Shown: piece after piece, positions 29,219 through 59,751 of the stretch
How positions within the stretch are numbered: position 1 is the stretch's first letter
Layout of the letters: every line of letters starts with the position of its first letter
NCBI GenBank assembly: GCA_023245335.1
Contig: JAHFKK010000001.1
Coordinates: 363,282 to 427,281, forward strand
DNA: 64,000 nucleotides
Direction: 5' to 3'
Source: Candidatus Gottesmanbacteria bacterium
GTDB taxonomy: Bacteria; Patescibacteriota; Microgenomatia; UBA10105; UBA927
Position numbers and translations under genes: made by a program
Notes under the pieces: model-generated
Databases searched by the model: none
What the model was told of the DNA's origin: nothing
The model's input: the letters and a program-made list of their open reading frames with translations, nothing else

Positions 29219-30097
29219 CTATATCTTCAGCTTTTCTACGAGAACGCCGGAGGAAATGATAAGGAGTCCGCCGACGATCTGGATCGGTGTCAATGATTCT
29301 TTGAGTATCGGCACTGCCATAAATGCCACCAGAACCGGAGTAAATGACATGATCATCGTGACAAATGATGCGCTCGCATATTTAAATGCGTGAAACTGGA
29401 ATGTCGTGAGGGCGAAGTCCCCGACGGTGATACCCAGTATCAAAAGCCATTCCTTCGGGATATGGAGTGTCGTATGTGTTGCTGCGATGAGAATTACAGG
29501 GATGAGTGCGATCGCAAATCTACCGGACGCGCCGAGCCCCGGTGTCATACGGTTGGCTGCGAGCTTGATAAGCACGCCGTTTCCTATGGCAAGAAGCATC
29601 GCTTCAAGAAGCGTCAGGAGATCGCCCGTCGACAAATGTAAGAGCTGGCCGTTGGTCGTGAGTAAGTAGGCGCCGGAAAGAATGGTGATGAGGAGCACGA
29701 GTTTCTTTTTCGTCACCGGTTCATGGAGGAATATCGCTGCGAAGATGATGATAAATACGGAGACCATCCGGATGAGGAATGAAAAATTCACAGCCGGAGT
29801 ATTCGCGAGTGCGAATGCCTCGACGAAGCTTACCGCGACGGAGCTTATGAGTGCCATGCCGACGAGGAGCCAGATATCCTTTTTTGTGAGTTTGCGGACA
29901 TTTTTCTTTTCTTTGGAAAATACGAAGAGCCAGTACGGAGCCGCCAGTATCGTCGTCCAGAAGGCGAGGTTGTACGGATTTTCGCCGTGACTCAAAACTA
30001 TACGCCCCAATACGATACTCGTCGCCCAGAAGAACGACGAAAGGAACGTAAAAATAAATCCTTTAGATAATTTCATGCAGATATCGGTTTGCGACAA
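29219..30097 (-). CDS. EamA/DMT-family transporter
   Basis: 10-TM protein with the duplicated EamA architecture. Confidence 0.75.
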   Translation of the reverse strand: MSQTDICMKLSKGFIFTFLSSFFWATSIVLGRIVLSHGENPYNLAFWTTILAAPYWLFVFSKEKKNVRKLTKKDIWLLVGMALISSVAVSFVEAFALANTPAVNFSFLIRMVSVFIIIFAAIFLHEPVTKKKLVLLITILSGAYLLTTNGQLLHLSTGDLLTLLEAMLLAIGNGVLIKLAANRMTPGLGASGRFAIALIPVILIAATHTTLHIPKEWLLILGITVGDFALTTFQFHAFKYASASFVTMIMSFTPVLVAFMAVPILKESLTPIQIVGGLLIISSGVLVEKLKI

Positions 30098-30980
30098 AGA
30101 CGCTGCTCACGATAATGATACCCCCGATCATTTCCGGCACCCCCACCATTTCGTGATACATAACATAGCCGAACAGAAGAGCAAATACATTGTCTAAAAG
30201 TAGTACCTGTGTGCCGATGACCGCATCCAGATGGTTGAAGGCAAAAATTTCCAAAGGATTTACCAGGATATTCATACCCGTGCCTATCACTAGACCGAGG
30301 AGGACGTGCGGATTGGTAAACGCGGAGACAGAGATAGTTTCACCTCGAAGTATTGCTATGAGAAATCCGGATATCGCCGCGATGGTCATGACGGAGATCG
30401 TAATTTCGTGTGTGTTGAGATGTGTGGAAAGAAGCTTACGGCCTACATAAAACCACGCCATCGTAGCGGTCGCAAGGAGCGCAAACCACTCGCCCTTTCC
30501 GAATACCGTAAGATGAGGAACGAACGACTTGGTTGCGACCATGGTGATGCCGATAAGGGACGTGATAAGAAGCGCGATCAGTTTTCCGTTCAGTGGTTTT
30601 TTGAGAACGAAAAATGCGTATAGATATGAAAAGAACGGCACAGAAGCAAATATGACGGTGACGTTGATAAGTTTCGCGTTGATTGCTGCAAGCGTGCTGA
30701 AATAAACAGCTATGGAATACCCGATGATTCCCATAGAAAGCAGTATGAGGAAATCGCGCGCCGGCATTGTAATAATTCGTTTCCAACGCAGGTGTTTCCG
30801 GAATAGAGCCATGAGTATGAGCGCTCCGAAGCTGATGCGTAGGTACACCTGGGTCATGGGTGGGAATCCTTCGGCAAGTAATCGAGATGAAACGTTTAGT
30901 AGACTATATGCGGCAGCGACAAGTACCAGGCCTGCGACGGCGAGACGATGTACAGAGTAACGGGAGAGTTGTTTGATCAT
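30063..30980 (-). CDS. EamA/DMT-family transporter
   Basis: 10-TM protein with the duplicated EamA architecture. Arranged in tandem with its neighbours. Confidence 0.75.
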   Translation of the reverse strand: MIKQLSRYSVHRLAVAGLVLVAAAYSLLNVSSRLLAEGFPPMTQVYLRISFGALILMALFRKHLRWKRIITMPARDFLILLSMGIIGYSIAVYFSTLAAINAKLINVTVIFASVPFFSYLYAFFVLKKPLNGKLIALLITSLIGITMVATKSFVPHLTVFGKGEWFALLATATMAWFYVGRKLLSTHLNTHEITISVMTIAAISGFLIAILRGETISVSAFTNPHVLLGLVIGTGMNILVNPLEIFAFNHLDAVIGTQVLLLDNVFALLFGYVMYHEMVGVPEMIGGIIIVSSVFVANRYLHEII

Positions 30981-31879
30981 TAGGAGTTGTCGCCTTTCAG
31001 GATAATGAGTATCGAAGAAATTATAACAAGTACGCCCCCAAATGTTGCATACATGCCCGGGATTTCCCGGAAAAAAAGAAATGCCAATAGTGTAGCAAAG
31101 AGAAGTTCGGAAAGAAGTAGGATGCTGCCTAAGGCCGACTTAATATATTGGAAGCCTTTGCTCATAAGGAGCCACGCGAGAAAGTTATCAATGCCGAAAA
31201 GGACCGTGACGAGCCAGGTATTCGGAGCTAGTGTTGTAATTCCGTTTCCTCCGGCATAAAAAGAATGTTCAAAAGACAATGAGAGCACTCCGAGCACAAG
31301 GACACCGACAAACGTACTGACGAGAAGTAATAGTTGGGAGCTATATTGTGGCAGCTTTTTGCGGCTTATAAGGTAAAACGACTGGCCAAAGGCAGACAGA
31401 AGTGCGGAAAATCCTCCGATCTTCCATGTCGCGAATGAATTCGGCCGGAAAAGCAGTAAGAGCGCAAGTAATGTGACGGCGAGAGCAATCAGGTTATATC
31501 TGTTCGCCTTTTCCTTCAGTATGAAATAACCCAGGATAGGCGTAATGATGGAAAAGCAATAAAAGATAAATAAACCGTTACTTACTTCAGTGTAGATGAT
31601 GCCGTACGTAAAAAAGAGATTCGTGAGTGCATACCCAAATACCGCAACGAGAACGAGAAATACAATAGTATTTTTGGAAAGTGCAAACTTGGACTTGGTG
31701 ATGATGAAGTAGACGAGAGCAGAAAGAAAGGCAAAAATATACCGGAGGAATACCTGTGACATCGGGGGAACATGGCCGCTCCCGAGGAAACGGATAAGAA
31801 TCGGCATAATGCTATAGAGAAGTGCCGATCCCAAGAGAAAAATAATACCTTTGGTGTTATCCCCGGATTTCCGAATCAT
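30980..31879 (-). CDS. EamA/DMT-family transporter
   Basis: 10-TM protein with the duplicated EamA architecture. Third member of the tandem set. Confidence 0.75.
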   Translation of the reverse strand: MIRKSGDNTKGIIFLLGSALLYSIMPILIRFLGSGHVPPMSQVFLRYIFAFLSALVYFIITKSKFALSKNTIVFLVLVAVFGYALTNLFFTYGIIYTEVSNGLFIFYCFSIITPILGYFILKEKANRYNLIALAVTLLALLLLFRPNSFATWKIGGFSALLSAFGQSFYLISRKKLPQYSSQLLLLVSTFVGVLVLGVLSLSFEHSFYAGGNGITTLAPNTWLVTVLFGIDNFLAWLLMSKGFQYIKSALGSILLLSELLFATLLAFLFFREIPGMYATFGGVLVIISSILIILKGDNS

Positions 31880-36074: not shown

Positions 36075-36851
36075 TCATCTTCTGTCGAAGAAGGAGTGAA
36101 GCATGAGGGCAACGATGATGGTAACGCCGCTTATAACCACTATGCTGACCATCTGCATGATTTTTGCACTGGTCCACCATGCAGGCTTAGGAGTTGGTGT
36201 CGGGGTGATGATTGCCGGCATAAGCGTCGGCGACGGAAGGGGTGCGAGTGTCGGGAATGCGCCGGTATAAATCATCGGTGTTTCATTGACGATTATTTCC
36301 TGCGTCGGTGCGGGTGTGCGGATGGGTGTCGGCGTAAGAGCGTTGTCGTTCACCACAACCGTATATGTGCAGTAGGATGGGTAACTGGACCAGCTGTTAT
36401 TGTTGTCACGAACGTGGCAGGTGACGTTATATGATCCGGGGTTGGCATAGGCGTGCGTGATCGAGAACGCGCCGTATTGCCCGACGTTTTTTTCTACGAG
36501 CTGCTTCTGGTCTCCGCCGAATCCGAACTCTGCTGCCGTTATGTCATTATTCGAGTCGTAGCCGGCACACGCGAAGTTGACGGTCAGCGGTTTGACTCCT
36601 GCACCGGGGTTTGCTGAGAGCCCGAGACATCTGGGAGGGCTATTGGTCGGAGTAGGCGTGAGGGTCGGGGTGACGGTGGGCGTAAGCGTCTCAGACGGTG
36701 TGGCGGTGGGGGTAAGATTTATGGTTGGTGTCGCGTTGGTGTCTGTCGCCCTGCTTCTCACGTCCTGGGGTTGCGTCACGATGGCCCAGATGATAAGCGG
36801 AAATATGATAAGCGCGATAAGCAGCAATAATTTCGCAGCGGATGATTTCAT
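36075..36851 (-). CDS. Surface protein with PKD domain, Thr/Pro linkers and C-terminal TM anchor
   Basis: Signal peptide. PKD signature VNFACAGYDSNNDITAAEFGFGGD...ITHAYANPGSYNVTCHVRDNNNSWS. C-terminal helix VSIVVISGVTIIVALML. Confidence 0.7.
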   Translation of the reverse strand: MKSSAAKLLLLIALIIFPLIIWAIVTQPQDVRSRATDTNATPTINLTPTATPSETLTPTVTPTLTPTPTNSPPRCLGLSANPGAGVKPLTVNFACAGYDSNNDITAAEFGFGGDQKQLVEKNVGQYGAFSITHAYANPGSYNVTCHVRDNNNSWSSYPSYCTYTVVVNDNALTPTPIRTPAPTQEIIVNETPMIYTGAFPTLAPLPSPTLMPAIITPTPTPKPAWWTSAKIMQMVSIVVISGVTIIVALMLHSFFDRR

Positions 36852-36925
36852 GGATCGTTTTCAGTATACGGGTGTTCTTTCTAGAGGTCAATGGAAGAGG
36901 CCATAATCGTGATATAATTCACCAT

Positions 36926-38803
36926 ATGCAATCAGATGACGTCAGAAATAAATTTATACAATATTATAAAGCCCGTAAGCATGTCGCGATTCCTTCGGCC
37001 TCCCTGGTTCCGGAAAACGACCCGACGACGCTTTTTACTTCCTCGGGGATGCAGCCTCTTATCCCGTACCTTCTAGGCCAGACGCACCCGTCCGGGAAAC
37101 GGTTGGTCGACAGCCAGAAGTCATTCCGTTCGCAGGATATAGATGAAGTAGGTGATAACCGGCATACGACGTTTTTCGAAATGCTGGGCAACTGGTCGCT
37201 CGGCGATTATTTCAAAAAAGAACAATTACCCTGGATATTTGAGTTTCTTACGAAAGAGTTGAAGCTCGATCCCAAGCGTCTCTACGTATCTGTTTTTGAA
37301 GGAGAAGGGGCTGTTCCCAAAGATGAGGAGTCGATACATATATGGAAAAAAATATTCAAAGAAGTCGGAATTGATGCGAAAGAAGGCCTGTCCTTAAATG
37401 AGGGCGGTCGGATATTCGCATATCCTGCCAAAAAGAACTGGTGGAGTAGATCCGGCGAACCGAAAAACATGCCGCCGGGGGAGCCTGGCGGACCTGACAG
37501 TGAAGTATTTTTTGATTTCGGAGCCAAGGGACTTCATGAAAAATCACCGTGGAAAAACGAACCATGCCACCCCAACTGCGACTGCGGCAGATTTATGGAG
37601 ATTGCCAATTCCGTGTTTATGCAATACCAAAAGATGCCGGACGGGAATCTCAAAGAATTGGCGCAGAAAAATGTGGATTTCGGCGGAGGACTCGAGCGGA
37701 TGACTGCTGCGGCAAACGACAATCCCGATGTGTTCATGTCCGATCTCTTTTCCCCGCTTATCCAGGTACTCGAAGAGGCATCCGGTCGTGTATATGGGGA
37801 GGAGCCGGTACCGACGCGCGTCATGCGCGTCCTTTCCGATCATATAAAAGCCGCAATCATGATGATGGTCGATGGAGTCCTGCCGTCCAATAAAGGACAG
37901 GGATATATCCTCCGCAGGCTTATCCGGAGGTCGCTTCTCTATGGATGGAAGCTGGGACTCATCAAGGATCTCACCTATATCGGCAGGCTCGCTTCACCGG
38001 TAGCGAAAATATACGCCGGAAGCTATCCGGAAGTGACGGAAAAAATTGATGAAATCCGGTTACTCCTCCAGGAGGAGGCGCTCCGGTTTGGCAAGACGCT
38101 CGAGCGGGGCCTTGCCGAAATAGAAAAGTTTCCGGCGTTAAACGGCAAGATCGCTTTCAACCTCTATGAAACGTTCGGATTCCCATGGGAAATGACCGTT
38201 GAGATCGCCTCGGAAAAAGGGCAGACCGTCGACCGTGCACAGTTTGAGGAAGAATTTAACAAACATAAAACGCTTTCGAGAACAGCCGCTGCCGGCATGT
38301 TTAAAGGCGGACTTGCGGATCACGGGGAAGAAACGACCAAGCTGCATACCGCACACCACCTGTTACTCGCGAGTCTGCAGAAGCTCGTCGACCCGAGCAT
38401 CAAACAACGCGGAAGTAATATCACGGCCGAACGCTTACGCATAGACTTCAACTTCATGCGCAAGCTGACGCCCGAGGAACTCACAAAAGTCGAAGTGATG
38501 GTGAACGAAAAAATTAAGGAAAATCTTAAAGTCACGCGTATCGAGATGGCGCGGGGTGTCGCCGAGACCATGGGCGCGCAACGCGAATTCGGCCAGAAAT
38601 ATCCGGATCGGGTCGGCGTCTATTTCGTCAATCTCAAAGAAGGTGTGGATCCCGAACGGGCGACACCCGCGGACTATTTTTCCGCGGAATTTTGCGGCGG
38701 GCCGCACGTCAGCTTTACAGGAACATTAGGCCACTTTACAATACGGAAAGAGGAGTCTGCCGGTGCCGGTATCCGGCGAATTTACGGACTACTCTCAAAG
38801 TAA
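36926..38803 (+). CDS. alaS: Alanine--tRNA ligase, truncated form (catalytic plus tRNA-binding plus editing, no C-Ala domain)
   Basis: FTSSGMQPLIPYLLG, HTTFFEMLGNWSLGDYFK, and the editing-domain HxxxH/CGGPHV motifs. About 625 aa against about 870 aa for canonical AlaRS. Confidence 0.85.
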   Translation: MQSDDVRNKFIQYYKARKHVAIPSASLVPENDPTTLFTSSGMQPLIPYLLGQTHPSGKRLVDSQKSFRSQDIDEVGDNRHTTFFEMLGNWSLGDYFKKEQLPWIFEFLTKELKLDPKRLYVSVFEGEGAVPKDEESIHIWKKIFKEVGIDAKEGLSLNEGGRIFAYPAKKNWWSRSGEPKNMPPGEPGGPDSEVFFDFGAKGLHEKSPWKNEPCHPNCDCGRFMEIANSVFMQYQKMPDGNLKELAQKNVDFGGGLERMTAAANDNPDVFMSDLFSPLIQVLEEASGRVYGEEPVPTRVMRVLSDHIKAAIMMMVDGVLPSNKGQGYILRRLIRRSLLYGWKLGLIKDLTYIGRLASPVAKIYAGSYPEVTEKIDEIRLLLQEEALRFGKTLERGLAEIEKFPALNGKIAFNLYETFGFPWEMTVEIASEKGQTVDRAQFEEEFNKHKTLSRTAAAGMFKGGLADHGEETTKLHTAHHLLLASLQKLVDPSIKQRGSNITAERLRIDFNFMRKLTPEELTKVEVMVNEKIKENLKVTRIEMARGVAETMGAQREFGQKYPDRVGVYFVNLKEGVDPERATPADYFSAEFCGGPHVSFTGTLGHFTIRKEESAGAGIRRIYGLLSK

Positions 38804-38838: not shown

Positions 38839-41268
38839 ATGAAGCTACCAAGCGCGCTTACCTCACTCATCAAAAAGAAGGAAGACGGAAAAGAATACTA
38901 CTTTTCCCTCTACATGGATGTCGATGCCGCAGCCGTTGCCGTGTGGAGCATGGATCCGGCCAAATTACCGACAATAGCCAGCTTCGCTCACGGCGTCGTA
39001 AAAGAGAATACCTGGGAAGCGCGGATACAGGTCATTGACCGGTTGTTGTCGGCCGCGGAAGACAAGGTAGGGGTAACAAAGGCGATCACCAAAACAGTTT
39101 TCGGCATGCCGGGCGCGTACCTCACTGCGGAAGGGAACATCGCTGATGAGATCCGGCCGCAGCTTAAAAAACTTGCACAGGTATTGGAACTTAAACCTGT
39201 GGGATTCGTTCCGTTGTCCCAAGCGCTTGCGTTTTCTCTCAAAAACGACGAAGGCGTACCGCCGAGCATCATCCTCATCGGGTGTTCCCAGAAAAATGCG
39301 CTCATCACCCTTTTTCGGGTCGGGAAACTTACCAGCCAGGATACGGTCGATCTCGCGGATGATCCGGCGGCTGTCGTGGAAGCGATCCTGAAAAAGAATC
39401 AGGATGGCGATGTGTTGCCTTCCCGGATGCTTCTGTACGGCGGGGATACCGTGAGACTCGAGGATGTACGGACGAAATTATTGAAACACCCCTGGCCCAC
39501 GCGGACAAACTTTCTCCACTTCCCGAAAATAGAGATCGTATCCGTAGAGTCGCTTCTCCACGCGGTTTCCCTGGCCGGGGCCGCGGAACTTGCTTCTGAC
39601 ATCGGGGAGCCGATTGAAGCCGCAGGAACGGTAGCGACGGTCGTTGCGCAACCGCGCCCGTCCATACTTCCCTCAGAGCCGGTCATTACACCTGCCGACA
39701 CGACTTCGGAAAAGGAAGAAGTGGAAGAAGAAGCGGTTGATGAGCGCGAAGAATCGGGTATCGCCAGTGCAGGTGAGGAAGAGGGAGAACCCGGTTCGTT
39801 GGAATCGGAAGCAGAAACAGTGGGTGATGCTATCGAAAAAGAAGAATCATCCGATGAAGAAGTCTCAAATGTAGAACTCGTGACACCCGAGTCTCTGGGA
39901 TTCCGGAAAGAAGACATACTGGAAAAAACTCCGGCTTCACATATGCCGCGGCCGGTCGTCGCGAAACCTATTAATCGTGAAGAGCTGGAAGAGGACGTAT
40001 TTGAGGAAGAAGACGAAGAAGAAGTGGAAGATACAAACGCAAAAAAGCCATTCAAATTGCCATTTAGCATTCCTACCGTCCGGGCGGATATGTTTGCTCC
40101 GGTCACACGCTTCCTGTCGCACCTTCGGTTTCCCAAAATGAAAAATACCATGTATATTTTCGGTGCTGTGGGTGTGGTACTTCTCTTGGGGGTCCTCTTT
40201 TATTTCGTCCCACGGGTCACGGTAACCGTTCTCGTATCGCCGCAGTCGGTGGACCAGTCGACGACGCTGACGGTCAATCCGACCGCAACTGTCGCAGACC
40301 CCGCGAGTAAAATCATACCGGGACACACGCAAAGCAAATCCATAAGCGGCGATAAAACAATTGCAGTGACCGGCAAGAAAAACGTCGGCGATCCGTCCAA
40401 GGGAACCGTGACTATCTATAATAAAGTCACGAATAGTAAGACGCTCCCTAAGGGAACGGTGCTTACGGGAAACAGTCTGTCATTTACTCTCGACAGTGAT
40501 GTTTCCATCGCTTCAGCCAGTGAAGACATAGGTTCCATCACCTTCGGAAAAGCGACCGCAAACGTCACCGCCAAAGACATAGGACCCAACGGCAATCTGC
40601 CGGCCGGCGTAGAATTCGTATTTACCGGTGTGAGTGGTTCGCAGGCATCAGCCCGGAACGATGCGGCATTTACCGGCGGCAACAGCAAATCAGTGACGGT
40701 CATTTCGCGCGCCGACCAGGACGGACTCGTGAAAGCCCTGACGGATGATTTGGTGGGGCAGGCGAAATCGCAGTTAGCCGCAAGTGCGACAGGCGGGGAG
40801 CATCTCATAGATGAAACGGTAAAAACTGCAGTGTCCGATAAGTCATTTGATCAGGAGATAGATCAGCAGGCGAGCCAGCTGCACGGCAAAATCACGATAA
40901 CGGTAAGCGGGATAAGCATAAGCGATGAAGACGTAAAAGCGATCCTTACGTCTCTGGTAGAAGGGAAAGTACCGGCAGGCTATGCCCTGGCGCCGGATCA
41001 AACCAATGTGTCGGTTTCCAACGTGACGGTCAAAAAAGACGGCTCCATAACGCTGACTGCGAAACTCACGGCGATCGCACTTCCGAAAGTCGACACCGAG
41101 GCACTTAAAACGACCCTCGCAGGAAAGGACGTCACCGCAGCGCTTACCATCCTCAAACAAACGACCGGGGTAGCAGGGGCAGAGTATAAGTTTGCGTTTT
41201 CGCCCGTGCAAAGCCGGTTGCCCATGAACCGCAACAATATCACCATTACCACAGCAGTCCAGCGATAG
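38839..41268 (+). CDS. Bitopic membrane protein: actin-like (FtsA/PilM-like) cytoplasmic N-domain, acidic linker, one TM, large beta-rich extracellular domain
   Basis: N-terminal 260 aa look like a degenerate FtsA/PilM ASKHA fold (YYFSLYMDVDAAAVAVWSMD; IILIGCSQKNALITLFRVGKL; MLLYGGDTVRLEDV). Glu-rich linker. TM helix IFGAVGVVLLLGVLFYFV. About 390 aa Thr/Val/Ser-rich ectodomain. Confidence 0.45.
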   Translation: MKLPSALTSLIKKKEDGKEYYFSLYMDVDAAAVAVWSMDPAKLPTIASFAHGVVKENTWEARIQVIDRLLSAAEDKVGVTKAITKTVFGMPGAYLTAEGNIADEIRPQLKKLAQVLELKPVGFVPLSQALAFSLKNDEGVPPSIILIGCSQKNALITLFRVGKLTSQDTVDLADDPAAVVEAILKKNQDGDVLPSRMLLYGGDTVRLEDVRTKLLKHPWPTRTNFLHFPKIEIVSVESLLHAVSLAGAAELASDIGEPIEAAGTVATVVAQPRPSILPSEPVITPADTTSEKEEVEEEAVDEREESGIASAGEEEGEPGSLESEAETVGDAIEKEESSDEEVSNVELVTPESLGFRKEDILEKTPASHMPRPVVAKPINREELEEDVFEEEDEEEVEDTNAKKPFKLPFSIPTVRADMFAPVTRFLSHLRFPKMKNTMYIFGAVGVVLLLGVLFYFVPRVTVTVLVSPQSVDQSTTLTVNPTATVADPASKIIPGHTQSKSISGDKTIAVTGKKNVGDPSKGTVTIYNKVTNSKTLPKGTVLTGNSLSFTLDSDVSIASASEDIGSITFGKATANVTAKDIGPNGNLPAGVEFVFTGVSGSQASARNDAAFTGGNSKSVTVISRADQDGLVKALTDDLVGQAKSQLAASATGGEHLIDETVKTAVSDKSFDQEIDQQASQLHGKITITVSGISISDEDVKAILTSLVEGKVPAGYALAPDQTNVSVSNVTVKKDGSITLTAKLTAIALPKVDTEALKTTLAGKDVTAALTILKQTTGVAGAEYKFAFSPVQSRLPMNRNNITITTAVQR

Positions 41269-41550: not shown

Positions 41551-42255
41551 ATGGTGATGTACCGTTACGTCAAAGCAGTACGAAAAAAGCCCATCTCCAG
41601 GCCGGTTGTCATATCCTATGTGCTCATGCTGATGGGACTTGGCGTCATCACATGGACGATTTGGCCGATCGTATCGTTTTTCGCTTTTGATCAGATCATG
41701 TATGCCCAGACCGTGAGTCCGGTCGAAAACAGCAGTGTCCGTCCGGCGGCGCCGCTTGCGTATGCGGAAGCAGGAGGAGCCACGACCGATCCCAATACGT
41801 GGTTCCCGACCCAACCGCAGAAAAAAGTCGTGGCCCCCGTCACGAGTTATTCGCTTTCTATCCCGTCACTTGGCATACAGAGTGCAACGGTTACTATTGC
41901 CGGGGATGACCTCGGCAAAAGCCTCATCCATTACGGAGGAACGGGACTTCCGGGTGAGTACGGCAATACCGTCATTTTCGGGCACTCCACGCTGCCGCAG
42001 CTTTTCCGCGGGACCAAAGACTATCATGCGGTATTTGCGACCTTGCCGACCATAAAAAACGGGACCGATATCCTCATTACCTATGACGGGGTGAAGTATC
42101 GGTACATCGTATATGATAAAGTTGTTGTAGAGCCCACAGATCTCACACCGCTTGAGCAGCAGTTCGATGATTCATATCTCACGCTCGTGACCTGTGTGCC
42201 GCCCGGAACATTTCTGTATCGGCTAAACGTCAAAGCGCGGTTAGAAAGGATTTAA
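41551..42255 (+). CDS. Sortase (class E/B-like transpeptidase)
   Basis: N-terminal TM, the His motif GNTVIFGHST, the catalytic Cys motif LTLVTC, and a downstream Arg (VKARLERI). Confidence 0.85.
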   Translation: MVMYRYVKAVRKKPISRPVVISYVLMLMGLGVITWTIWPIVSFFAFDQIMYAQTVSPVENSSVRPAAPLAYAEAGGATTDPNTWFPTQPQKKVVAPVTSYSLSIPSLGIQSATVTIAGDDLGKSLIHYGGTGLPGEYGNTVIFGHSTLPQLFRGTKDYHAVFATLPTIKNGTDILITYDGVKYRYIVYDKVVVEPTDLTPLEQQFDDSYLTLVTCVPPGTFLYRLNVKARLERI

Positions 42256-43532: not shown

Positions 43533-43724
43533 ATGCTCAAAAATATTTTAGGTCCGGTTCAAGCGTGGCTACTTGCCCAGGGCAAATGCGTGGGTTGCGG
43601 CAAGATTCTTCCTGTCAAAGAAGGCAAAGGTATGCAGCGCGTCGATTGCGCATGCGGCAGAATTTATATGTATGATCCGGCTGCACACAAATACCGGAGG
43701 GCGCTTCTCGATGAAATCAAATAG
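43533..43724 (+). CDS. Small zinc-ribbon protein
   Basis: 63 aa with CVGCG...CAC, a four-Cys ribbon. Overlaps the mltG start by 14 nt. Confidence 0.4.
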   Translation: MLKNILGPVQAWLLAQGKCVGCGKILPVKEGKGMQRVDCACGRIYMYDPAAHKYRRALLDEIK

Positions 43725-44700
43725 TACCAACATATTCTTCTCTCGGGTCATCGTATTTCTTCTGGTGATAGCGGTCGGCATCGTGGTTTTCTTTGGCTGG
43801 TGGGGGACAAGCACACAGGCCGTCGACCCTATGGATCCCGCGCCGATATCGTTTACCGTGCATCCCGGGGATGGAGTGCGGGTGATCGCGGCTAACCTCG
43901 CGACCTATCGGCTCATCCGGAGCCCCACGGCATTTTTTGTTCTCGTCAAAGTCATGGGGATAGAGAAAAACCTGCAGGCGGGAGATTTCCGGCTCAACAA
44001 AACGATGGACAGTAAGACCGTCGCTCAGCAATTGACGCACGGATTTGAGGATATCTGGGTGACGGTACTGGAGGGCTGGCGCAATGAGGAAATTGCCGTC
44101 GTCCTTGCCAAAAATCTGGATATCCCCGAAAGCGAGTTTCTGAAAGTTTCCCATGAGGGGTACATGTTTCCGGACACGTATCGTATCCCGCACGACGCTT
44201 CGGCCGGAGCAGTCGTTAATATGTTCCGGACAACATTTGATGCAAAAGTGACGGATGCCATGAAGGCCTCGGCAGTGAAACACGGACTGACGGTCGATCA
44301 GATGGTGACACTCGCGTCCCTGGTTGAGCGCGAAGGGCATAATGATCAGGATCGCCCGGTCATAGCGGGCATACTCCTCAAGCGTCTGAAAGCCAATTGG
44401 CCGCTTCAGGTCGACGCCACGCTTCAGTTCTCGTTGGGATATCAGTCAAGTGATAAGAGCTGGTGGAAAAAAGAACTTACTGATGATGACCGGAAAATTG
44501 CATCGCCGTACAATACATACCTCAATCCCGGACTGCCGCCGGGCCCCATCTGTAACCCCGGCCTTTCATCTCTTAATGCCGTCGCAAACCCCAAGGATTC
44601 CGACTACTGGTATTATCTGCATGATACGTCGGGAGCTATCCATTACGCGAAGACCATCGAGGAACATAATGCGAATATCGCGAAATTTCTCCGCGGGTAA
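43711..44700 (+). CDS. mltG: Endolytic murein transglycosylase MltG (YceG family)
   Basis: N-terminal TM followed by a YceG domain with C-terminal YYLHDTSGAIHYAKTIEEHNANI. Start set at the internal Met MKSNST. Confidence 0.85.
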   Translation: MKSNSTNIFFSRVIVFLLVIAVGIVVFFGWWGTSTQAVDPMDPAPISFTVHPGDGVRVIAANLATYRLIRSPTAFFVLVKVMGIEKNLQAGDFRLNKTMDSKTVAQQLTHGFEDIWVTVLEGWRNEEIAVVLAKNLDIPESEFLKVSHEGYMFPDTYRIPHDASAGAVVNMFRTTFDAKVTDAMKASAVKHGLTVDQMVTLASLVEREGHNDQDRPVIAGILLKRLKANWPLQVDATLQFSLGYQSSDKSWWKKELTDDDRKIASPYNTYLNPGLPPGPICNPGLSSLNAVANPKDSDYWYYLHDTSGAIHYAKTIEEHNANIAKFLRG

Positions 44701-46395
44701 ATGAACAAAATCATCGGCAGTATCATCGGAGCATTGTTGCTCTTCGTCACTCCTCTGGCATTTGCTCAGGGGAGCGCTGACGTTGCCGCCGAACACATCC
44801 AGTCGTATGCCGTGAATGCGGCGGTCCATACCGACGGAACAGCGCGGGTATCGGAACGCCTCCTCTATCATTTCTCGTCTCCCCGGCACGGCATCATACG
44901 GACGATCCCGTATGTCAAAACAAATAGTAACGGCAAGAAGTATGCCATGACGATCGACAACATCACCGTCACGGATGAAAGTAATGCCGCATACCCCGTG
45001 ACCCAAAGCAGTGACGGCACGAACCTATCACTCAAAGTTGGGGATTCGGACAATACGCTCACGGGAGATCACTGGTATGTCATTTCTTATGACGTATCGG
45101 GCGGGATCACGTATTTTTCCGATCACGATGAATGGTACTGGAACGACATCGGTTCCGAGTGGTCTGTACCCGTCCTTTCAGCCGAGGCAATCACAGAACT
45201 TCCGAACGGCATCACCGATACGACCATCCAGAAATCCTGCTTTACCGGAGTACCGGGATCGACAGAAAGCTCCTGCACTATGACGGTTGCCAACGACGTC
45301 GTGACCGTAAAAGCGACCAGGGAACTCGCCGCGGGTGAGGGGCTGACGACTGTTATTGGTTTTCCGAAGAATATCGTTTCCGTCCTCGAGTCCAAGGAAG
45401 TCGTACCGTTTTTCTCGACAACAGCAGGAAAAATTGTCCTCGTTCTCATCGCGATTGCCGTATTTATCTGGTATATCGTCGCACCTATCATGGTCGTCTG
45501 GAAATGGTGGACGTCAGGGAGGGACCCCAAGCCCGCTATGGGAGAGGTGAAGGCATGGTTCAGTCCGCCAACGACTGCGGCAGGGCGAACGCTTACTCCT
45601 GCGGAAACCGGCGGCCTCATTGACGAACGTGTTGATATGCGCGATATCTATGGCACGATCATAGATCTTGCCCGCCGGGGGTATCTCAAGATTACCGAAA
45701 GTACGAAAGGAGACTTCACCCTCACGAAGATGAAAAAATGGAGTGCTTCGGAGTTGCAATCCTACGAAGTTACGCTTCTCACCGGTATTTTTTCCGGCGA
45801 AGACAGCGTGAAGCTCAAGGATCTGGACCTCCGGGAGACCATCCATACGGTGAGTAACGCATTGTATATCTCGATGGTTTCCGACGGATTCTTCCCGAAT
45901 AATCCCGAGAAGGTCCGGTTACTTTATATTGTCCTTGCGGTGTTTTCTGCCATTACGTTTAATCCCATACTTCTTTTGGTATCGCTGACGTTTGGCCTCC
46001 ATATGCCGAGGAAAACGATGCTGGGAGCGGGTCAGGCAGCGGTAGCCAGGTCCCTCAAAAATTTCCTGGTAAGCCAGGACAAGCAGCTTGCGTTCCAGGC
46101 CAAAAACCAGATGATGTTTGAGAAACTTCTGCCGTATGCGATCGCATTTGGTGTGGAAGTCATCTGGGCCAAACGATTCCGCGATATCGCGATCAAACGA
46201 CCGGATTGGTATGAATCTTCGACCGGAGGAAACTTCAATACATTACTCTTCGCACAGAGTCTCGGCCGCGGATACAGCACCTCATTTGCGACAGCCGCGA
46301 CATACAAATCCTCTTCCGGTTTCTCTTCCGGCTTTTCCGGAGGAGGAGGGTTCTCCGGCGGCGGGGGTGGTGGCGGAGGCGGCGGAAGCTGGTAG
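44701..46395 (+). CDS. DUF2207-family membrane protein with Gly-rich C-terminus
   Basis: Signal peptide, extracellular DUF2207-like region (YFSDHDEWYWNDIG), two TM segments and a terminal (G)n tail. Confidence 0.6.
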   Translation: MNKIIGSIIGALLLFVTPLAFAQGSADVAAEHIQSYAVNAAVHTDGTARVSERLLYHFSSPRHGIIRTIPYVKTNSNGKKYAMTIDNITVTDESNAAYPVTQSSDGTNLSLKVGDSDNTLTGDHWYVISYDVSGGITYFSDHDEWYWNDIGSEWSVPVLSAEAITELPNGITDTTIQKSCFTGVPGSTESSCTMTVANDVVTVKATRELAAGEGLTTVIGFPKNIVSVLESKEVVPFFSTTAGKIVLVLIAIAVFIWYIVAPIMVVWKWWTSGRDPKPAMGEVKAWFSPPTTAAGRTLTPAETGGLIDERVDMRDIYGTIIDLARRGYLKITESTKGDFTLTKMKKWSASELQSYEVTLLTGIFSGEDSVKLKDLDLRETIHTVSNALYISMVSDGFFPNNPEKVRLLYIVLAVFSAITFNPILLLVSLTFGLHMPRKTMLGAGQAAVARSLKNFLVSQDKQLAFQAKNQMMFEKLLPYAIAFGVEVIWAKRFRDIAIKRPDWYESSTGGNFNTLLFAQSLGRGYSTSFATAATYKSSSGFSSGFSGGGGFSGGGGGGGGGGSW

Positions 46396-49471: not shown

Positions 49472-50341
49472 TCAGATTTTGAACCGCTCGACGAAAAACA
49501 TCGATCCCACGATGACGGCTCCACCGAGGAGCTGGTACACATCCAGCCGCTCATGGAGTAAAGGGTACGACAGGATGGTGACAAAGACAGGGGTGAGCGA
49601 CACAATCATCGTCACAAATGAGGCGGTCGCATGTTTGTACGCCCGGTTCCGTACCATCGTGATGCCAAGCGACAGGGCGCTCCCCAGTATGATAAACGGT
49701 ATGTGTCCGGATACCCGCAGAGCGCCAATTCCGACGGCAAAGATAAAAAGGGCGACAGAAGAAACGATAGATATGGCCGCCCCGCTTATGTCCGGATGCA
49801 TCCGGGAGATTGTGTGCTTTATGAGGATGTTGGAAATGAATGCGGCGGACAGTGCGTATACCAGGGTATAGATATCTCCGGTCGTGAGATGTATGCCTTT
49901 CCCGTTGGTTGTGAGTAAGAATGAGCCGAAAAGGATGAGTCCCGCGAGTATCCACTTTTTCACGCTGATGGCTTCTTTGAAAAAGATATACGCGAGGATG
50001 ATAGTGAATACGACGATCGTACGATAGAGAAACGCGAAGTTTGCGGCGGGCGAGTGCAGGAGTGTAATCGACTGCAGGTAGTTGAGGCCCACTGAGGATA
50101 TGACCCCTATACCTACGAGATACCATTTGAATTTAGGCGAAAGCGCTTGGTATTCCTCTCTGTGTTTGCCGAGTATGTATATCCACGGCGGGATCATGAT
50201 GAGGCCGATCCAGACGGTAAGGTTGAGGGGATCCTCGCCTTTCAGAAGAAGATATCGGGTGTTTACGAGCGAGCACGCCCAAAGGAATGCGGTCGCCAGT
50301 GAAAATATAAGTCCCCTGCTCATTCCGGAAAATAACTTCAT
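49472..50341 (-). CDS. EamA/DMT-family transporter
   Basis: 10-TM protein with the duplicated EamA architecture. Start set at the internal Met MKLFSGMSRG. Confidence 0.7.
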   Translation of the reverse strand: MKLFSGMSRGLIFSLATAFLWACSLVNTRYLLLKGEDPLNLTVWIGLIMIPPWIYILGKHREEYQALSPKFKWYLVGIGVISSVGLNYLQSITLLHSPAANFAFLYRTIVVFTIILAYIFFKEAISVKKWILAGLILFGSFLLTTNGKGIHLTTGDIYTLVYALSAAFISNILIKHTISRMHPDISGAAISIVSSVALFIFAVGIGALRVSGHIPFIILGSALSLGITMVRNRAYKHATASFVTMIVSLTPVFVTILSYPLLHERLDVYQLLGGAVIVGSMFFVERFKI

Positions 50342-50518
50342 GTCTTTCGCATTATAGTACAAATATCCCGGTGCGTTCTGTCGGTCATTTCTACCGGTGA
50401 GCAGTATAATGGGACACATGGCGAAGAGTGGAGAAGTGGACGAGCTCCATGCAAAGGTAGTTTCGTATCTTCCTAAACCGGAGTTGACATTTCTCATAGA
50501 GTTTGTAATATATATCAC

Positions 50519-50995
50519 ATGGTTAAAAACATCGTTATTCTCGTTCTGGTTGTTCTTGCTGCAGGTGAAGGATACTTCCTCATGCATAAATCCAATGGTC
50601 CCATGGTACAGGGCGCAGAGCGCGAAAATGCGCAGCAGCCTCGTCCCAGCGGCGCTCCAAACAGGCCGCCGATCCTAGGTAAAGGCGATAAGCTTATGGG
50701 ATCGCCCTTAGAGAAATTTGCATTTAAGATCGCGCCAGGAGATATACCTCCTGAATCCCAAGCCAAACTCACCGGCTTTGCCGTGAAGTCGACGAAACTT
50801 GCTGACGGATCGGAGCAGGTCTCGCTCACGCCGAAAGATGCGGATGATCAGTTCCAACAGTATACCGTCAAACCCGGCCAAGTACTCTATTTCATAGAGA
50901 TGACGGGGTCAGATGATGTCGGCAGTCAGGATTTGGATAAGAACTATCGCGATGACTACGGCATGATCACCGACGCAAACGGCGTGATCCAGTAA
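50519..50995 (+). CDS. Hypothetical secreted protein
   Basis: N-terminal signal/TM (IVILVLVVLAAGEGYF). Promoter TTGACA-16-TAATAT upstream at about 50486..50513. Confidence 0.45.
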   Translation: MVKNIVILVLVVLAAGEGYFLMHKSNGPMVQGAERENAQQPRPSGAPNRPPILGKGDKLMGSPLEKFAFKIAPGDIPPESQAKLTGFAVKSTKLADGSEQVSLTPKDADDQFQQYTVKPGQVLYFIEMTGSDDVGSQDLDKNYRDDYGMITDANGVIQ

Positions 50996-51748: not shown

Positions 51749-52024
51749 ATGCCAATCATAGACGCCATTTCAGCCGAGAAATTAGCAGCGTTGCGAAAAA
51801 TTGGTTCGGATGTGGAAGCACGCAAGAAACAGGAAGCTGCAGATATCCAGCTGGCACTTAGTCTCGGCGAAGAACCCGGCAAACTTACGCACGATCAGCT
51901 TGAGACGTTATTAGATATACAAATGGGCGGAAAGGGAGACCATATCTCGCATCAGGTTATCAGGCGTAAGCTCTGGAAAGGCCATAAGTTCAGTTTCCGC
52001 ATGGCCGGACAGAAAACCAGGTAA
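51749..52024 (+). CDS. Hypothetical protein
   Basis: 91 aa ORF. No family recognised. Confidence 0.3.
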   Translation: MPIIDAISAEKLAALRKIGSDVEARKKQEAADIQLALSLGEEPGKLTHDQLETLLDIQMGGKGDHISHQVIRRKLWKGHKFSFRMAGQKTR

Positions 52025-52030
52025 GGGGAT

Positions 52031-52267: not shown

Positions 52268-52356
52268 ATGTCGTCGGCGGGCTGGTTGCGCCTATAGTAC
52301 CACAAGAAGCTATTTATGGAAAATATACGCAACATAGAGTGGTATAGTGGGATGGT

Positions 52357-52623: not shown

Positions 52624-52665
52624 TAGTCGTGTAGACCTTGGAGGTAAAGAATAGAAAAGTTCAAT

Positions 52666-53421: not shown

Positions 53422-53443
53422 GGCAGATCAGAACTATTTTTAT

Positions 53444-55075: not shown

Positions 55076-55076
55076 T

Positions 55077-57389: not shown

Positions 57390-57391
57390 GT

Positions 57392-59745: not shown

Positions 59746-59751
59746 ACGAGG

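What the first reader, a model, noticed from the sequence alone, without database searches (positions are those of the whole stretch)
38839..41268. Actin-like (FtsA/PilM-like) domain fused to a TM helix and a 390 aa extracellular beta-rich domain, next to a sortase
The N-terminal 260 residues resemble a degenerate ASKHA/FtsA/PilM fold. A poly-Glu linker, a single TM helix and a long Thr/Val-rich ectodomain follow. I do not recognise this architecture. It could couple a cytoplasmic filament or ATPase to a cell-surface structure, for example the divisome, a pilus or an attachment organelle. It also bears on the missing PilM partner of the pilN gene at 2114..2665.
Basis: inference. Interest (0 to 1): 0.6.

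Follow-up and report, generated by a model that had tools for sequence, protein, structure and literature searches.

The report
FtsA-like domain fused to baseplate-J ectodomain
One membrane protein of a Patescibacteria (CPR) bacterium joins a stripped-down, probably ATP-blind relative of the cell-division protein FtsA (inside the cell) to a homologue of a phage tail baseplate wedge protein (outside the cell); in related phyla the same two parts are neighbouring genes, which points to an undescribed envelope-spanning module.

Summary
ORF 38839..41268 (+) encodes 809 aa: a conserved N-domain (1-262), a D/E-rich disordered linker with a conserved 15-aa motif, one TM helix (437-457) and a 352-aa ectodomain. 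A sortase gene follows. The N-domain models confidently as a minimal ASKHA/actin fold. Profile-profile comparison ties it specifically to an FtsA-like family (prob 97%, E 1e-11; controls <1%), with the FtsA 1C and 2B subdomains deleted and the phosphate motifs degenerate. The unrecognised ectodomain is a full-length homologue of phage baseplate J/gp47 wedge proteins (Pfam plus Foldseek). In Saccharibacteria and in Chloroflexota (Limnocylindrales), alaS is followed by a complete FtsA-like gene, then a TM-anchored baseplate-J-like gene, then ruvX and mltG (54/54 loci). In Gottesmanbacteria and relatives the two are one fused gene at the same position, always followed by a sortase (69/69). So this is a lineage-specific fusion of a conserved, uncharacterised FtsA + baseplate-J-like membrane module. 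It probably couples a cytoplasmic scaffold to cell-wall or surface assembly; that function is inferred only. The idea that it is PilN's missing PilM partner is not supported. No paper describing the module was found.

The parts
38839..41268 (+). Whole gene: 809-aa bitopic protein (N-in, C-out)
   Evidence: Continuous ORF. Full-length homologues. Single hydrophobic helix with basic residues on its N-terminal side.
38839..39624 (+). Cytoplasmic N-domain, aa 1-262: minimal ASKHA core (subdomains 1A+2A) derived from an FtsA-like protein. It has no 1C and no 2B, and its phosphate-1 and phosphate-2 motifs are degenerate.
   Evidence: AF2 model pLDDT 83.8, pTM 0.82. Foldseek PDB hits are all ASKHA. 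hhalign to the FtsA-like family gives prob 97.4%, E 1.3e-11, with gaps at 1C and 2B. Controls are negative. Motif census. No Pfam, NCBIfam or PDB sequence hit.
39625..39858 (+). Acidic, poorly conserved linker 1, aa 263-340 (32% D/E)
   Evidence: Conservation profile; composition.
39859..39918 (+). Conserved short linear motif inside the linker, core aa 343-357 'NVELVTPESLGF'. Its binding partner is unknown.
   Evidence: Alignment of 15 diverse members. This 20-aa block has no gaps and 69% top-residue conservation, against 9-28% in the flanking linker.
39919..40038 (+). Acidic linker 2, aa 361-400 (38% D/E; contains the poly-Glu run)
40039..40146 (+). Basic juxtamembrane segment, aa 401-436 (8 K/R, 1 D/E), on the cytoplasmic side by the positive-inside rule
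40147..40209 (+). Single transmembrane helix, aa 437-457
   Evidence: Only region with a Kyte-Doolittle 19-residue mean above 1.6. Modelled as a helix.
40210..41265 (+). Extracellular domain, aa 458-809: multi-domain homologue of baseplate J / Mu gp47 wedge proteins
   Evidence: AF2 model pLDDT 86.5. Top Foldseek hits in PDB (A-1(L), phi812, diffocin, Mu, Pa193 baseplates; E 2e-6 to 1e-4 over 330-377 columns) and in BFVD (almost only baseplate J/wedge proteins, E down to 7e-8). Global TM is only about 0.2.
40390..40680 (+). Beta-barrel of the ectodomain, aa 518-614: Pfam Baseplate_J (PF04865) match, also GlxA-type barrel
   Evidence: Pfam E 4e-5, 23.4 bits against cut-off 21.1. 12 of 15 family members hit, best 7e-7. 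A Chloroflexota relative hits PHROG 6 'baseplate wedge subunit' at 1e-8.
41551..42255 (+). Sortase with N-terminal TM helix and TLxTC-type active site ('LVTC'). Invariably the next gene after the fused form.
   Evidence: Pfam Sortase E 5e-20; NCBIfam sortase_fam. Downstream in 69/69 species-level loci, median gap about 11 nt. Also in L086.
36842..38803 (+). alaS (AlaRS, 653 aa): conserved upstream anchor of the cluster
   Evidence: Pfam tRNA-synt_2c E 3e-115. Upstream in 59/60 fused loci and 46/54 split loci.
43573..44700 (+). mltG/yceG (maximal ORF; the true start is probably later, overlapping the end of the 63-aa Zn-ribbon ORF 43533..43724): conserved downstream anchor of the cluster
   Evidence: Pfam YceG E 2e-76. 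Downstream in 62/62 fused loci. Downstream of ruvX in split loci.

Best explanation
The gene encodes a single-pass envelope protein. It is a lineage-specific fusion (Gottesmanbacteria and related Microgenomates) of two partners that are separate, adjacent and often overlapping genes in Saccharibacteria and in Chloroflexota (Limnocylindrales).

The two partners in the split form:
1. A complete FtsA-type protein with a 1C subdomain, intact ATP motifs and an FtsA-like C-terminal amphipathic helix.
2. A bitopic membrane protein whose ectodomain is homologous to phage baseplate J/gp47 wedge proteins.

Shown for the fused form:
- The FtsA moiety is reduced to its 1A+2A core. It lacks 1C and 2B, and the phosphate-binding Asp/Gly motifs are replaced.
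- It is tied directly to the membrane through a roughly 175-aa acidic disordered tether that carries one conserved short motif.
- The module sits in the ancient alaS...(ruvX)...mltG cluster and is followed immediately by a sortase gene, with a median gap of about 11 nt.

Inferred mechanism:
- The cytoplasmic pseudo-ATPase core is a docking or self-association module.
- The baseplate-J-like ectodomain self-associates on the outer face of the membrane and contacts the wall.
- Together they form a trans-membrane coupler. It links a cytoplasmic division or growth scaffold to extracellular cell-wall and surface-protein assembly (sortase, MltG, and in one relative a class A PBP).
- This is analogous in logic to FtsA-FtsN/FtsQ, or to PilM+PilN fused as GspL.
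For: Architecture and conservation.

N-domain:
- ASKHA fold.
- Specific homology to the FtsA-like partner family: hhalign over X aa 8-248 against FtsA-like aa 10-389, prob 97.4%, E 1.3e-11, with deletions at 1C and 2B.
- Negative controls: DnaK NBD 0.2%, reversed alignment 0.9%.
- Smaller alignment: 87%.
- Direct tblastn hit between an FtsA-like protein and the N-domain of member L077, E 2e-4.

The partner family is FtsA-type:
- TIGR01174 E 2e-32; full-length match to PRK09472.
- PDB sequence hits to FtsA at 2e-15 against PilM at 3e-9.
- Conserved amphipathic C-terminal 'S-I-R-E-K-I-D-R-M-L-R-V', muH 0.58, against 0.62 for the E. coli FtsA membrane-targeting sequence.

Ectodomain is baseplate J-like. 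The A2 profile matches the split proteins over their full ectodomain (E 2e-23 and 2e-18).

Split module synteny, alaS - ftsA-like - TM-BpJ - ruvX - mltG:
- Individual loci.
- BpJ downstream in 54/54 and ruvX in 49/49 metagenome loci.

Intermediate form: a separate but degenerate 346-aa ASKHA gene upstream of a TM-BpJ gene.

Fused synteny, alaS - X - sortase - ... - mltG: sortase in 69/69, alaS in 59/60, mltG in 62/62. X - sortase - class A PBP in L086.

Degenerate nucleotide motifs across 118 members.
Against: - No experiment or structure of a complex exists. Function rests on homology, gene order and analogy.
- alaS, ruvX and mltG form an old cluster whose members are not known to work together, so position alone is weak evidence for a wall or division role.
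- The N-domain lacks the 2B subdomain that binds the FtsZ tail in FtsA and the 1C subdomain that recruits late divisome proteins. The canonical FtsA interactions therefore cannot be assumed.
- Whether these genomes keep a canonical FtsA elsewhere is unknown.
- Foldseek global TM-scores for the ectodomain are low (about 0.2, rmsd 25-40 A). Domain order and folds match baseplate J, but the overall shape, and hence the oligomeric behaviour, is not established.
- The model pTM of 0.53 shows that inter-domain packing is uncertain.
- The Pfam match covers only the barrel.
Confidence: 0.55

Rival explanations
1. It is a sortase-linked surface-assembly platform. The membrane-anchored ectodomain positions the co-encoded sortase, or serves as the base or acceptor for sortase-joined surface proteins or a fibre. 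The cytoplasmic domain only regulates or localises this. This rival overlaps with the best explanation in the envelope role but has no division link.
For: - A sortase is the next gene in 69/69 fused loci, with gaps of a few nucleotides, and in the distant fused member L086.
- Sortase is absent from all split-form loci, so fusion and sortase co-occur perfectly.
- A candidate substrate with an 'MPASG'+TM+basic tail signal is in the window at 6095..7213.
- 'TIYNK' is invariant in the barrel of fused forms.
Against: - The protein has no C-terminal sorting signal.
- Its conserved 'RLPxNxNNI' aligns with a non-LP loop of sortase-free relatives.
- The ectodomain family predates the sortase association, which is absent in Saccharibacteria and Chloroflexota.
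- No pilin-like genes lie in the operon.
Confidence: 0.2
2. It is the PilM-equivalent of the type IV pilus machine, a PilM-PilN-like fusion comparable to GspL. It would supply the cytoplasmic partner that is missing next to pilN/pilO at 1456..2722.
For: - PilM structures are among the top Foldseek hits (E 3e-9, TMq 0.55-0.59).
- No pilM gene lies next to pilN; rpsT is upstream.
- The architecture of actin-like domain, TM helix and ectodomain parallels GspL (established knowledge).
Against: - No PilM_2, TIGR01175 or GspL HMM hit.
- It lacks the 1C-type subdomain that forms the PilN-binding groove.
- PilN here still carries the 'INLLG' motif that expects a canonical PilM.
- The relatives are FtsA-type, with an FtsA-like membrane-targeting helix.
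- It is never syntenic with pil genes in more than 150 loci.
- The ectodomain is not PilN/PilO-like.
Confidence: 0.05
3. It is a host-attachment or epibiont contact organelle component specific to the CPR lifestyle. The baseplate-like ectodomain would bind or pierce the host surface.
For: - Patescibacteria are largely epibionts (PMC11665869, abstract).
- The ectodomain derives from a family used in contractile injection devices.
- It is surface-exposed, and cohesin/PKD surface proteins are encoded nearby.
Against: - The same module occurs in Limnocylindrales (Chloroflexota). That contig carries a normal-sized gene complement and is not CPR.
- There are no sheath, tube, spike or other baseplate genes nearby.
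- It is embedded among housekeeping genes and conserved in position across phyla.
Confidence: 0.1
4. It is a prophage or contractile-injection-system remnant, or a gene-calling or assembly artefact joining two genes.
For: Only the Baseplate_J Pfam hit, and the NCBI label 'baseplate J/gp47 family protein' on some homologues.
Against: - The ORF is continuous. The fused architecture recurs in more than 100 species-level genomes and several hundred 50%-identity clusters.
- It sits at a fixed chromosomal position between alaS and mltG.
- Composition is ordinary (GC 0.53).
- No other phage genes are present.
- There is strong purifying conservation of both domains.
Confidence: 0.02

Closest known systems
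FtsA (bacterial actin homologue of the divisome) with its bitopic partners (FtsN, FtsQ/DivIB)
   Same: The N-domain is homologous to an FtsA-type family: the 1A and 2A cores align, and the 'LP-R-LL-GG' adenosine-motif region and the following W...F..P segment are shared. In sister lineages the partner is a complete FtsA-like protein with 1C, ATP motifs and an amphipathic C-terminal helix. That protein is encoded next to, and often overlapping, a bitopic membrane protein. This matches the FtsA-FtsN/FtsQ logic of a cytoplasmic actin-like protein coupled to a single-pass envelope protein.
   Different: The window protein has no 1C and no 2B, has degenerate phosphate motifs, and has a true TM helix instead of an amphipathic helix. 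It gives no FtsA HMM hit. The ectodomain is unrelated to the SPOR domain of FtsN or the POTRA/beta domains of FtsQ. The gene is not next to ftsZ.
GspL of type II secretion, and the PilM + PilN pair of type IV pili
   Same: The architectural principle is the same: a nucleotide-blind actin-like cytoplasmic domain, one TM helix and an extracytoplasmic domain. The evolutionary pattern is also the same: two adjacent genes in some lineages (PilM, PilN) are one fused gene in others (GspL). This rests on established knowledge. PilM is among the fold hits.
   Different: There is no sequence or HMM relation to GspL, PilM or PilN. There is no SHS2/1C insertion. The ectodomain is baseplate-J-like, not ferredoxin-like. 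There is no secretion ATPase or pilin context.
Baseplate J / Mu gp47 / P2 gpJ / T4 gp6-type wedge proteins of contractile tails (Pfam PF04865)
   Same: The barrel domain passes the Pfam threshold. The whole ectodomain aligns in 3Di space with solved and predicted baseplate J proteins over 313-440 columns at prob 1.0.
   Different: It is anchored to the cell membrane by an N-terminal TM helix and faces outward. It has no neighbouring gp25/W, gp46/I, tube, sheath or spike genes. It is chromosomal, housekeeping-linked and conserved across phyla. Global superposition is poor (TM about 0.2).
Minimal ASKHA proteins without catalytic motifs (YeaZ/TsaB; EutJ-size cores)
   Same: It is about 240 aa and consists of the two RNase-H-like lobes only. 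YeaZ and EutJ are among the best fold matches with balanced TM (0.5-0.55). It has lost ATP-binding motifs, as has YeaZ (established knowledge).
   Different: There is no sequence relation to these proteins. Profile evidence places it with FtsA-like proteins instead. It is fused to a membrane protein.

Membership tests
FtsA | Matches FtsA family models (TIGR01174 / PF14450 / SHS2_FTSA) | tested here: not met
   No Pfam or NCBIfam hit for the N-domain, even at E<=1. The split-form partner hits TIGR01174 at 2e-32 but scores below its cut-off.
FtsA | Remote homology to FtsA-type proteins over the ASKHA core | tested here: met
   hhalign prob 97.4%, E 1.3e-11, 237 columns, against the alaS-linked FtsA-like family. 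Controls <1%. tblastn hit to L077.
FtsA | 1C (SHS2) subdomain inserted in 1A, and 2B subdomain (FtsZ-tail site) | tested here: not met
   The AF2 model shows only two beta3-alpha-beta-alpha-beta-alpha lobes in 262 aa. The hhalign gaps fall exactly at the 1C and 2B segments of the FtsA-like proteins.
FtsA | Intact phosphate-1 (DxGxx), phosphate-2 (DxGGGT) and adenosine (GGG) motifs | tested here: not met
   P1 is 'L-D-x-D-A-A-A' with no Gly. The P2 Asp is replaced by L/I/V and there is no GGT. The adenosine motif is reduced to 'LLYG(G)'.
FtsA | C-terminal amphipathic membrane-targeting helix | tested here: not met
   Replaced by an acidic linker plus a true TM helix. The helix is present in the split-form FtsA-like proteins.
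FtsA | Binds the FtsZ C-terminal peptide and localises to the division site | not testable with these tools
   Needs interaction or localisation experiments, or multimer modelling.
PilM (type IV pilus alignment complex) | PilM_2 / TIGR01175 model match | tested here: not met
   No hit. The FtsA-like relatives score far better against FtsA than against PilM.
PilM (type IV pilus alignment complex) | Encoded with pilN/pilO; groove (1A/1C) for the PilN N-terminal INLLP peptide | tested here: not met
   The gene lies 36 kb from pilN/pilO and is never next to pil genes in more than 150 loci. The 1C subdomain is absent.
GspL | GspL cytoplasmic and periplasmic domain models; T2SS operon context | tested here: not met
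   No GspL Pfam hit at E<=1. There are no secretion genes nearby. The resemblance is architectural only.
Baseplate_J (PF04865) / gp47-type wedge proteins | Pfam model above gathering threshold | tested here: met
   23.4-25.2 bits against cut-off 21.1 for the window protein. 12/15 family members hit, best E 7e-7. The match covers profile positions 21-109 of 255 only.
Baseplate_J (PF04865) / gp47-type wedge proteins | Full-length structural correspondence to solved wedge proteins | tested here: inconclusive
   Top Foldseek hits are exclusively baseplate J/wedge proteins, aligned over 313-440 columns at prob 1.0. However, TM is about 0.2 and rmsd 25-40 A, and the model pTM is 0.53.
Baseplate_J (PF04865) / gp47-type wedge proteins | Part of a contractile tail/CIS gene cluster (gp25/W, gp46/I, tube, sheath, spike) | tested here: not met
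   The neighbours are alaS, sortase, a thymidine-phosphorylase-like gene, mltG and DUF2207. The same holds in 80 related loci.
Sortase substrate (cell-wall sorting signal protein) | C-terminal LPXTG-like motif + hydrophobic segment + basic tail | tested here: not met
   The C-terminus '...RLPMNRNNITITTAVQR' has no hydrophobic segment. The LP loop aligns with 'TPKN' in sortase-free relatives.

The most novel reading that the evidence does not exclude
Chloroflexota and Patescibacteria share an ancestral, so far undescribed envelope-spanning apparatus. In it, FtsA (or its degenerate, fused descendant) is physically coupled through the membrane to an extracellular assembly built from a cellular homologue of the phage baseplate wedge protein J. 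That assembly would be a possibly ring- or arc-forming exoskeletal element at the division or growth site. On this reading, baseplate wedge proteins and a core cell-envelope protein are evolutionary relatives (exaptation in one direction or the other). These phyla would also divide with a divisome component that has no counterpart in model bacteria.
Probability: 0.3. Interest if true: 0.85.

Novelty: new variant of a known kind. Interest (0 to 1): 0.66.

Why it matters
Cell division and envelope growth in Patescibacteria and in many Chloroflexota are almost unstudied, and these groups make up a large share of bacterial diversity. The result identifies a conserved partner of their FtsA-type gene. 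The partner is adjacent to it, and overlaps it by 4 nt in the Saccharibacteria locus L084. It was present downstream in 54/54 split loci and is fused to the FtsA-type domain in more than 100 species. This turns a 'hypothetical / baseplate J family' annotation into a concrete, testable candidate for a lineage-specific divisome or wall-assembly component.

Genetic tools now exist for Saccharibacteria, so localisation, essentiality and interaction can be tested directly. It is also a clean fusion/split ('Rosetta stone') case that predicts a physical interaction. It is an example of a phage-baseplate fold used on the cell surface outside any injection device. The fixed pairing of the fused form with a sortase suggests a link between this module and surface-protein anchoring.

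Tried and rejected
- **Sequence searches of the N-domain.** Pfam, NCBIfam, PHROGs and a PDB profile found nothing significant. Only the fold search and profile-profile comparison were informative.
- **'RLPxNxNNI' as a sortase signal.** Rejected. There is no hydrophobic tail, and the loop is shared with sortase-free relatives as 'TPKN...'.
- **The ~85-aa N-terminal domain of split BpJ proteins as a relative of the fused N-domain.** Rejected: hhalign prob 0.7%. That domain also has no PDB or Pfam match.
- **Prophage or CIS remnant.** Rejected on context and conservation.
- **Promoter/terminator scan of the 283-nt gap before the sortase.** Nothing on the + strand.
- **Literature.** Searches for 'baseplate J' with CPR, Patescibacteria, Saccharibacteria, sortase or FtsA found no paper. 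A look for TM7x gene neighbours of ftsA in a transcriptome paper's supplement gave only the ftsA and ftsZ locus tags, which are not adjacent.
- **Not checked.** Whether the genome has a canonical ftsA or pilM elsewhere could not be checked.


Full report
**1. The observation**

The window reads as a Patescibacteria (CPR) chromosome segment with about 50% GC and housekeeping genes. An uninterrupted ORF at 38839..41268 (+) encodes 809 aa.

A database search found the identical protein on a 1.218-Mb contig. It also found more than 120 full-length homologues at 38-71% identity, named where named as Gottesmanbacteria or Woesebacteria 'hypothetical' or 'baseplate J/gp47 family' proteins.

Column conservation over 118 homologues, hydropathy and composition give this map:
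- aa 1-262: conserved N-domain.
- aa 263-340: poorly conserved, 32% D/E.
- about aa 343-357: conserved motif 'NVxxVxPExLGF'.
- aa 361-400: poorly conserved, 38% D/E.
- aa 401-436: basic stretch.
- aa 437-457: the only transmembrane helix.
- aa 458-809: conserved T/V/S-rich ectodomain of 352 aa.

The next gene, 41551..42255, is a sortase. The description is therefore correct apart from the ectodomain length. The architecture is not an artefact. A profile of the N-domain finds 1396 representatives of 50%-identity clusters, 668 of them at E<=1e-30. The best 150 are almost all 700-850 aa with the domain at the N-terminus.

**2. The N-domain**

No Pfam, NCBIfam or PDB sequence model matches it. An AlphaFold2 model built on 15 diverse homologues is confident (pLDDT 83.8, pTM 0.82). 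It shows two consecutive beta-beta-beta-alpha-beta-alpha-beta-alpha lobes, the ASKHA/actin core, with no room for extra subdomains.

Foldseek against the PDB returns only ASKHA proteins at E about 1e-9 to 1e-7: ROK kinases, PilM, PPX/GppA, YeaZ, FtsA and EutJ. TMq is 0.55-0.61 for FtsA and PilM. The fold search alone does not single out FtsA or PilM.

The canonical nucleotide motifs are degenerate across the family:
- Phosphate-1 is 'L-D-x-D-A-A-A', without glycine.
- The phosphate-2 Asp is replaced by L/I/V, and 'GGT' is absent.
- Only 'LLYG(G)' remains of the adenosine motif.

I infer that the domain does not hydrolyse ATP. It is nevertheless under strong purifying selection. Invariant positions include W36, W59, R62, D67, G122-F123-V124, L193-P194, R196, N224-F225, H227 and P229-K230.

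**3. The ectodomain**

The only Pfam hit of the whole protein is Baseplate_J (PF04865), above its gathering score, on aa 518-614. Twelve of 15 diverse members hit it.

The AlphaFold2 model of the TM helix plus ectodomain has pLDDT 86.5 but pTM 0.53. The domains are confident and their mutual arrangement is not. Foldseek results:
- Against the PDB, the top hits are baseplate J/gp47-type wedge proteins of cyanophage A-1(L), phage phi812, diffocin, Mu and Pa193. They align over 330-377 of 378 columns at prob 1.0 (E 2e-6 to 1e-4). The GlxA beta-barrel also hits.
- Against BFVD, the 38 best hits are, where named, almost exclusively 'baseplate J-like' or 'baseplate wedge' proteins (E down to 7e-8).

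Global TM-scores are only about 0.2. I therefore take homology of domain content and order as supported, and overall shape as open. A Chloroflexota relative also hits PHROG 6 'baseplate wedge subunit'. By the positive-inside rule, and because there is no signal peptide before a cytoplasmic-type domain, the topology is N-in/C-out (inference).

**4. Relatives elsewhere: the key result**

A profile of the ectodomain also finds proteins of about 550-620 aa that lack the N-domain. They have a conserved ~85-aa N-terminal domain ('IYxDVDDEITS...'), an acidic linker, a TM helix and the same ectodomain.

Their genomic contexts are uniform: alaS, then a 420-432-aa FtsA-like gene, then this TM-baseplate-J-like gene, then ruvX and mltG. 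The second gene overlaps the first by 4 nt in L084. This order is seen in:
- Three Saccharibacteria-type contigs.
- A 70%-GC contig.
- A Limnocylindrales (Chloroflexota) contig.

In 80 further metagenome loci found with the FtsA-like protein, the TM-BpJ gene follows in 54/54 loci with room, ruvX follows in 49/49, and alaS precedes in 46/54.

The FtsA-like proteins carry the FtsA hallmarks:
- TIGR01174 at E 2e-32, below the cut-off, and an end-to-end match to PRK09472.
- Best PDB sequence hits to FtsA at 2e-15, against PilM at 3e-9.
- Intact DIGT / DVGGGTTD / CGGGS motifs.
- A conserved amphipathic C-terminal 'S-I-R-E-K-I-D-R-M-L-R-V'. Its hydrophobic moment of 0.58 matches the E. coli FtsA membrane-targeting helix at 0.62. 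The E. coli sequence is from my own knowledge.

NCBI calls one of them 'cell division FtsA domain-containing protein'. In Nanosynbacter lyticus TM7x the only annotated ftsA is not adjacent to ftsZ by locus tag (PMC10768705). That is compatible with, but does not prove, this being the organism's FtsA.

**5. The window's N-domain is a cut-down copy of that FtsA-like partner**

- With 260 N-domains against 84 FtsA-like proteins, hhalign gives prob 97.4%, E 1.3e-11 over 237 columns (aa 8-248 against 10-389). The two large gaps in the window protein fall where the FtsA-like proteins have 1C and 2B.
- Controls with the same settings give 0.2% against the DnaK nucleotide-binding domain and 0.9% against the reversed alignment.
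- A small-alignment comparison gave 87%.
- One family member (L077) gives a direct tblastn hit at E 2e-4.
- An intermediate exists. In contig L085, alaS is followed by a separate 346-aa gene and then a TM-BpJ gene. The 346-aa protein is a degenerate ASKHA protein, related to the fused N-domain (88%, E 3e-6) and to FtsA-like proteins (52%), but not to DnaK (0.3%).

**6. Synteny of the fused form**

In 80 species-representative genomes the record titles are mostly Candidatus Gottesmanbacteria, with some Woesebacteria, Microgenomates and 'Patescibacteria group'. The many 'uncultured Gammaproteobacteria' titles are evidently generic deposit labels. That is my inference from shared synteny and 35-69% identity.

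The gene order is alaS - X - sortase - (thymidine-phosphorylase-like) - 63-aa Zn-ribbon ORF - mltG:
- Sortase downstream in 69/69 loci, with a median gap of about 11 nt.
- alaS upstream in 59/60.
- mltG downstream in 62/62.

A distant fused member (36% GC) has X - sortase - class A PBP. No split-form locus has a sortase. Fusion and sortase linkage therefore coincide perfectly in the data at hand. I cannot explain this. The protein lacks a sorting signal, and its conserved C-terminal 'RLPxNxNNI' corresponds to a non-LP loop in sortase-free relatives.

**7. Most likely mechanism**

Shown: this is a fused, membrane-tethered descendant of an FtsA-type protein plus a cell-surface baseplate-J homologue. 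It occupies the position of a two-gene module shared by Chloroflexota and Patescibacteria.

Inferred:
- The split partners interact. This is the Rosetta-stone argument, backed by tight gene adjacency that includes a 4-nt overlap in L084.
- In the fused form, covalent linkage replaced the interaction domain. The split proteins' 85-aa N-terminal domain is absent and unrelated.
- The FtsA core became a nucleotide-independent docking or self-association module.
- The acidic tether, with its conserved motif, recruits an unknown partner.
- The ectodomain self-associates, as wedge proteins do (established knowledge for T4 gp6 and Mu gp47), and contacts the wall.
- The context (sortase, MltG, class A PBP) suggests coupling of a cytoplasmic division or growth scaffold to wall and surface assembly.

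I put about 0.9 on the structural and evolutionary statement and about 0.35 on the division/wall-coupling function, giving 0.55 overall.

**8. Rivals**

- A sortase-centred surface-assembly platform (0.2) is compatible with the strict sortase linkage but lacks a substrate signal.
- The PilM idea (0.05) fails every family test that I could run.
- The PilN here keeps its 'IRINLLG' motif, with rpsT rather than pilM upstream. A canonical PilM is therefore expected elsewhere.
- A CPR-specific host-attachment device (0.1) is weakened by the presence of the module in Limnocylindrales.
- A prophage remnant or artefact (0.02) is excluded by conservation and context.

**9. Comparison with what is known, and novelty**

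- It works like FtsA-FtsN/FtsQ or PilM-PilN/GspL in its logic: an actin-like cytoplasmic part coupled to a single-pass envelope protein, split in some lineages and fused in others.
- It is not a member of FtsA sensu stricto. It has no 1C or 2B, no ATP motifs, no amphipathic helix and no HMM hit.
- It is not a member of PilM or GspL.
- Its ectodomain is a member of the Baseplate_J superfamily by Pfam, but it lies outside any tail or injection cluster.
- Full-text searches found no paper linking baseplate J to CPR, Saccharibacteria, sortase or FtsA. Databases carry only 'hypothetical' or 'baseplate J/gp47 family protein'.
- I rate it a new variant of a known kind (actin-like/bitopic envelope couplers). 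There is a real chance (about 0.3) that it marks a new apparatus.
- Interest is 0.66. A specialist in bacterial division or CPR biology would be surprised that the FtsA-type gene of two large phyla is invariably paired or fused with a surface homologue of a phage baseplate protein. The hypothesis is directly testable in the Saccharibacteria strains that are now genetically tractable.

**10. Limits**

- No multimer modelling was possible.
- Only 64 kb of the genome is available, so the presence of a canonical ftsA or pilM elsewhere is unknown.
- The window and the roughly 1 Mb of related flanks contain none.

Noticed in passing
window 6095..7213 (-): Surface protein with cohesin and Big_13 domains. 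It ends in 'MPASG' + hydrophobic segment + 'RNKS', a sorting-signal-like tail. It is a candidate substrate for the sortase at 41551..42255 and hints at an [LM]PxSG motif in this lineage.
   Followed up: partly
window 36075..36851 (-): PKD-domain protein with an N-terminal TM helix, Pro/Thr-rich linkers and a C-terminal TM helix + 'DRR' tail. It is divergently placed upstream of alaS and is syntenic only in the closest relatives of this genome.
   Followed up: partly
window 1456..2722 (-): pilN (likely start 'MPADSIRINLLG', canonical PilM-binding type motif) and pilO are preceded by rpsT rather than pilM. A 68-aa membrane ORF follows pilO. The PilM partner must be encoded elsewhere or be absent.
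   Followed up: partly
window 43533..43724 (+): 63-aa CxxC...CxC zinc-ribbon ORF between the thymidine-phosphorylase-like gene and mltG, overlapping the mltG maximal ORF. It is conserved at this position in nearly all 80 related loci, so it is a real small gene of unknown role.
   Followed up: partly
window ~52000..58000 (genes 53444..55075 and 55077..57389, +): Low-GC island (34-42% against about 50%) carrying a type III restriction-modification pair (N6_N4 DNA methylase + ResIII helicase/endonuclease). It is probably horizontally acquired.
   Followed up: no
window 29219..31879 (-), 49472..50587 (-), 58870..59811 (-): Five EamA-family (drug/metabolite transporter) paralogues confirmed by Pfam within 64 kb, three of them in tandem. 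This is an unusual density for a 1.2-Mb genome.
   Followed up: no
window 36842..38803 (+) vs L170:5978-8713: The AlaRS here is 653 aa and lacks the C-terminal DHHA1 domain. That domain is present in the 911-aa Limnocylindrales enzyme at the equivalent position. Saccharibacteria versions are also short (593-693 aa).
   Followed up: no
L084:7001-7280, L087:6001-6280, L170:10001-10260 (split-form relatives): Conserved ~85-aa N-terminal cytoplasmic domain 'IYxDVDDEITS...ALVLP...N.KLL' in the split-form baseplate-J-like membrane proteins. It is shared by Saccharibacteria and Chloroflexota, has no Pfam or PDB match, and is the presumed docking site for the FtsA-like partner.
   Followed up: partly
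window 44701..46395 (+): DUF2207 membrane protein ending in a poly-Gly tail ('GGGGFSGGGGGGGGGGSW'). It follows mltG in many of the related loci.
   Followed up: no
L086:8240-11189: In a distant, 36%-GC fused-form genome the operon reads X - sortase - class A PBP (transglycosylase + transpeptidase). This strengthens the cell-wall context of the module.
   Followed up: no
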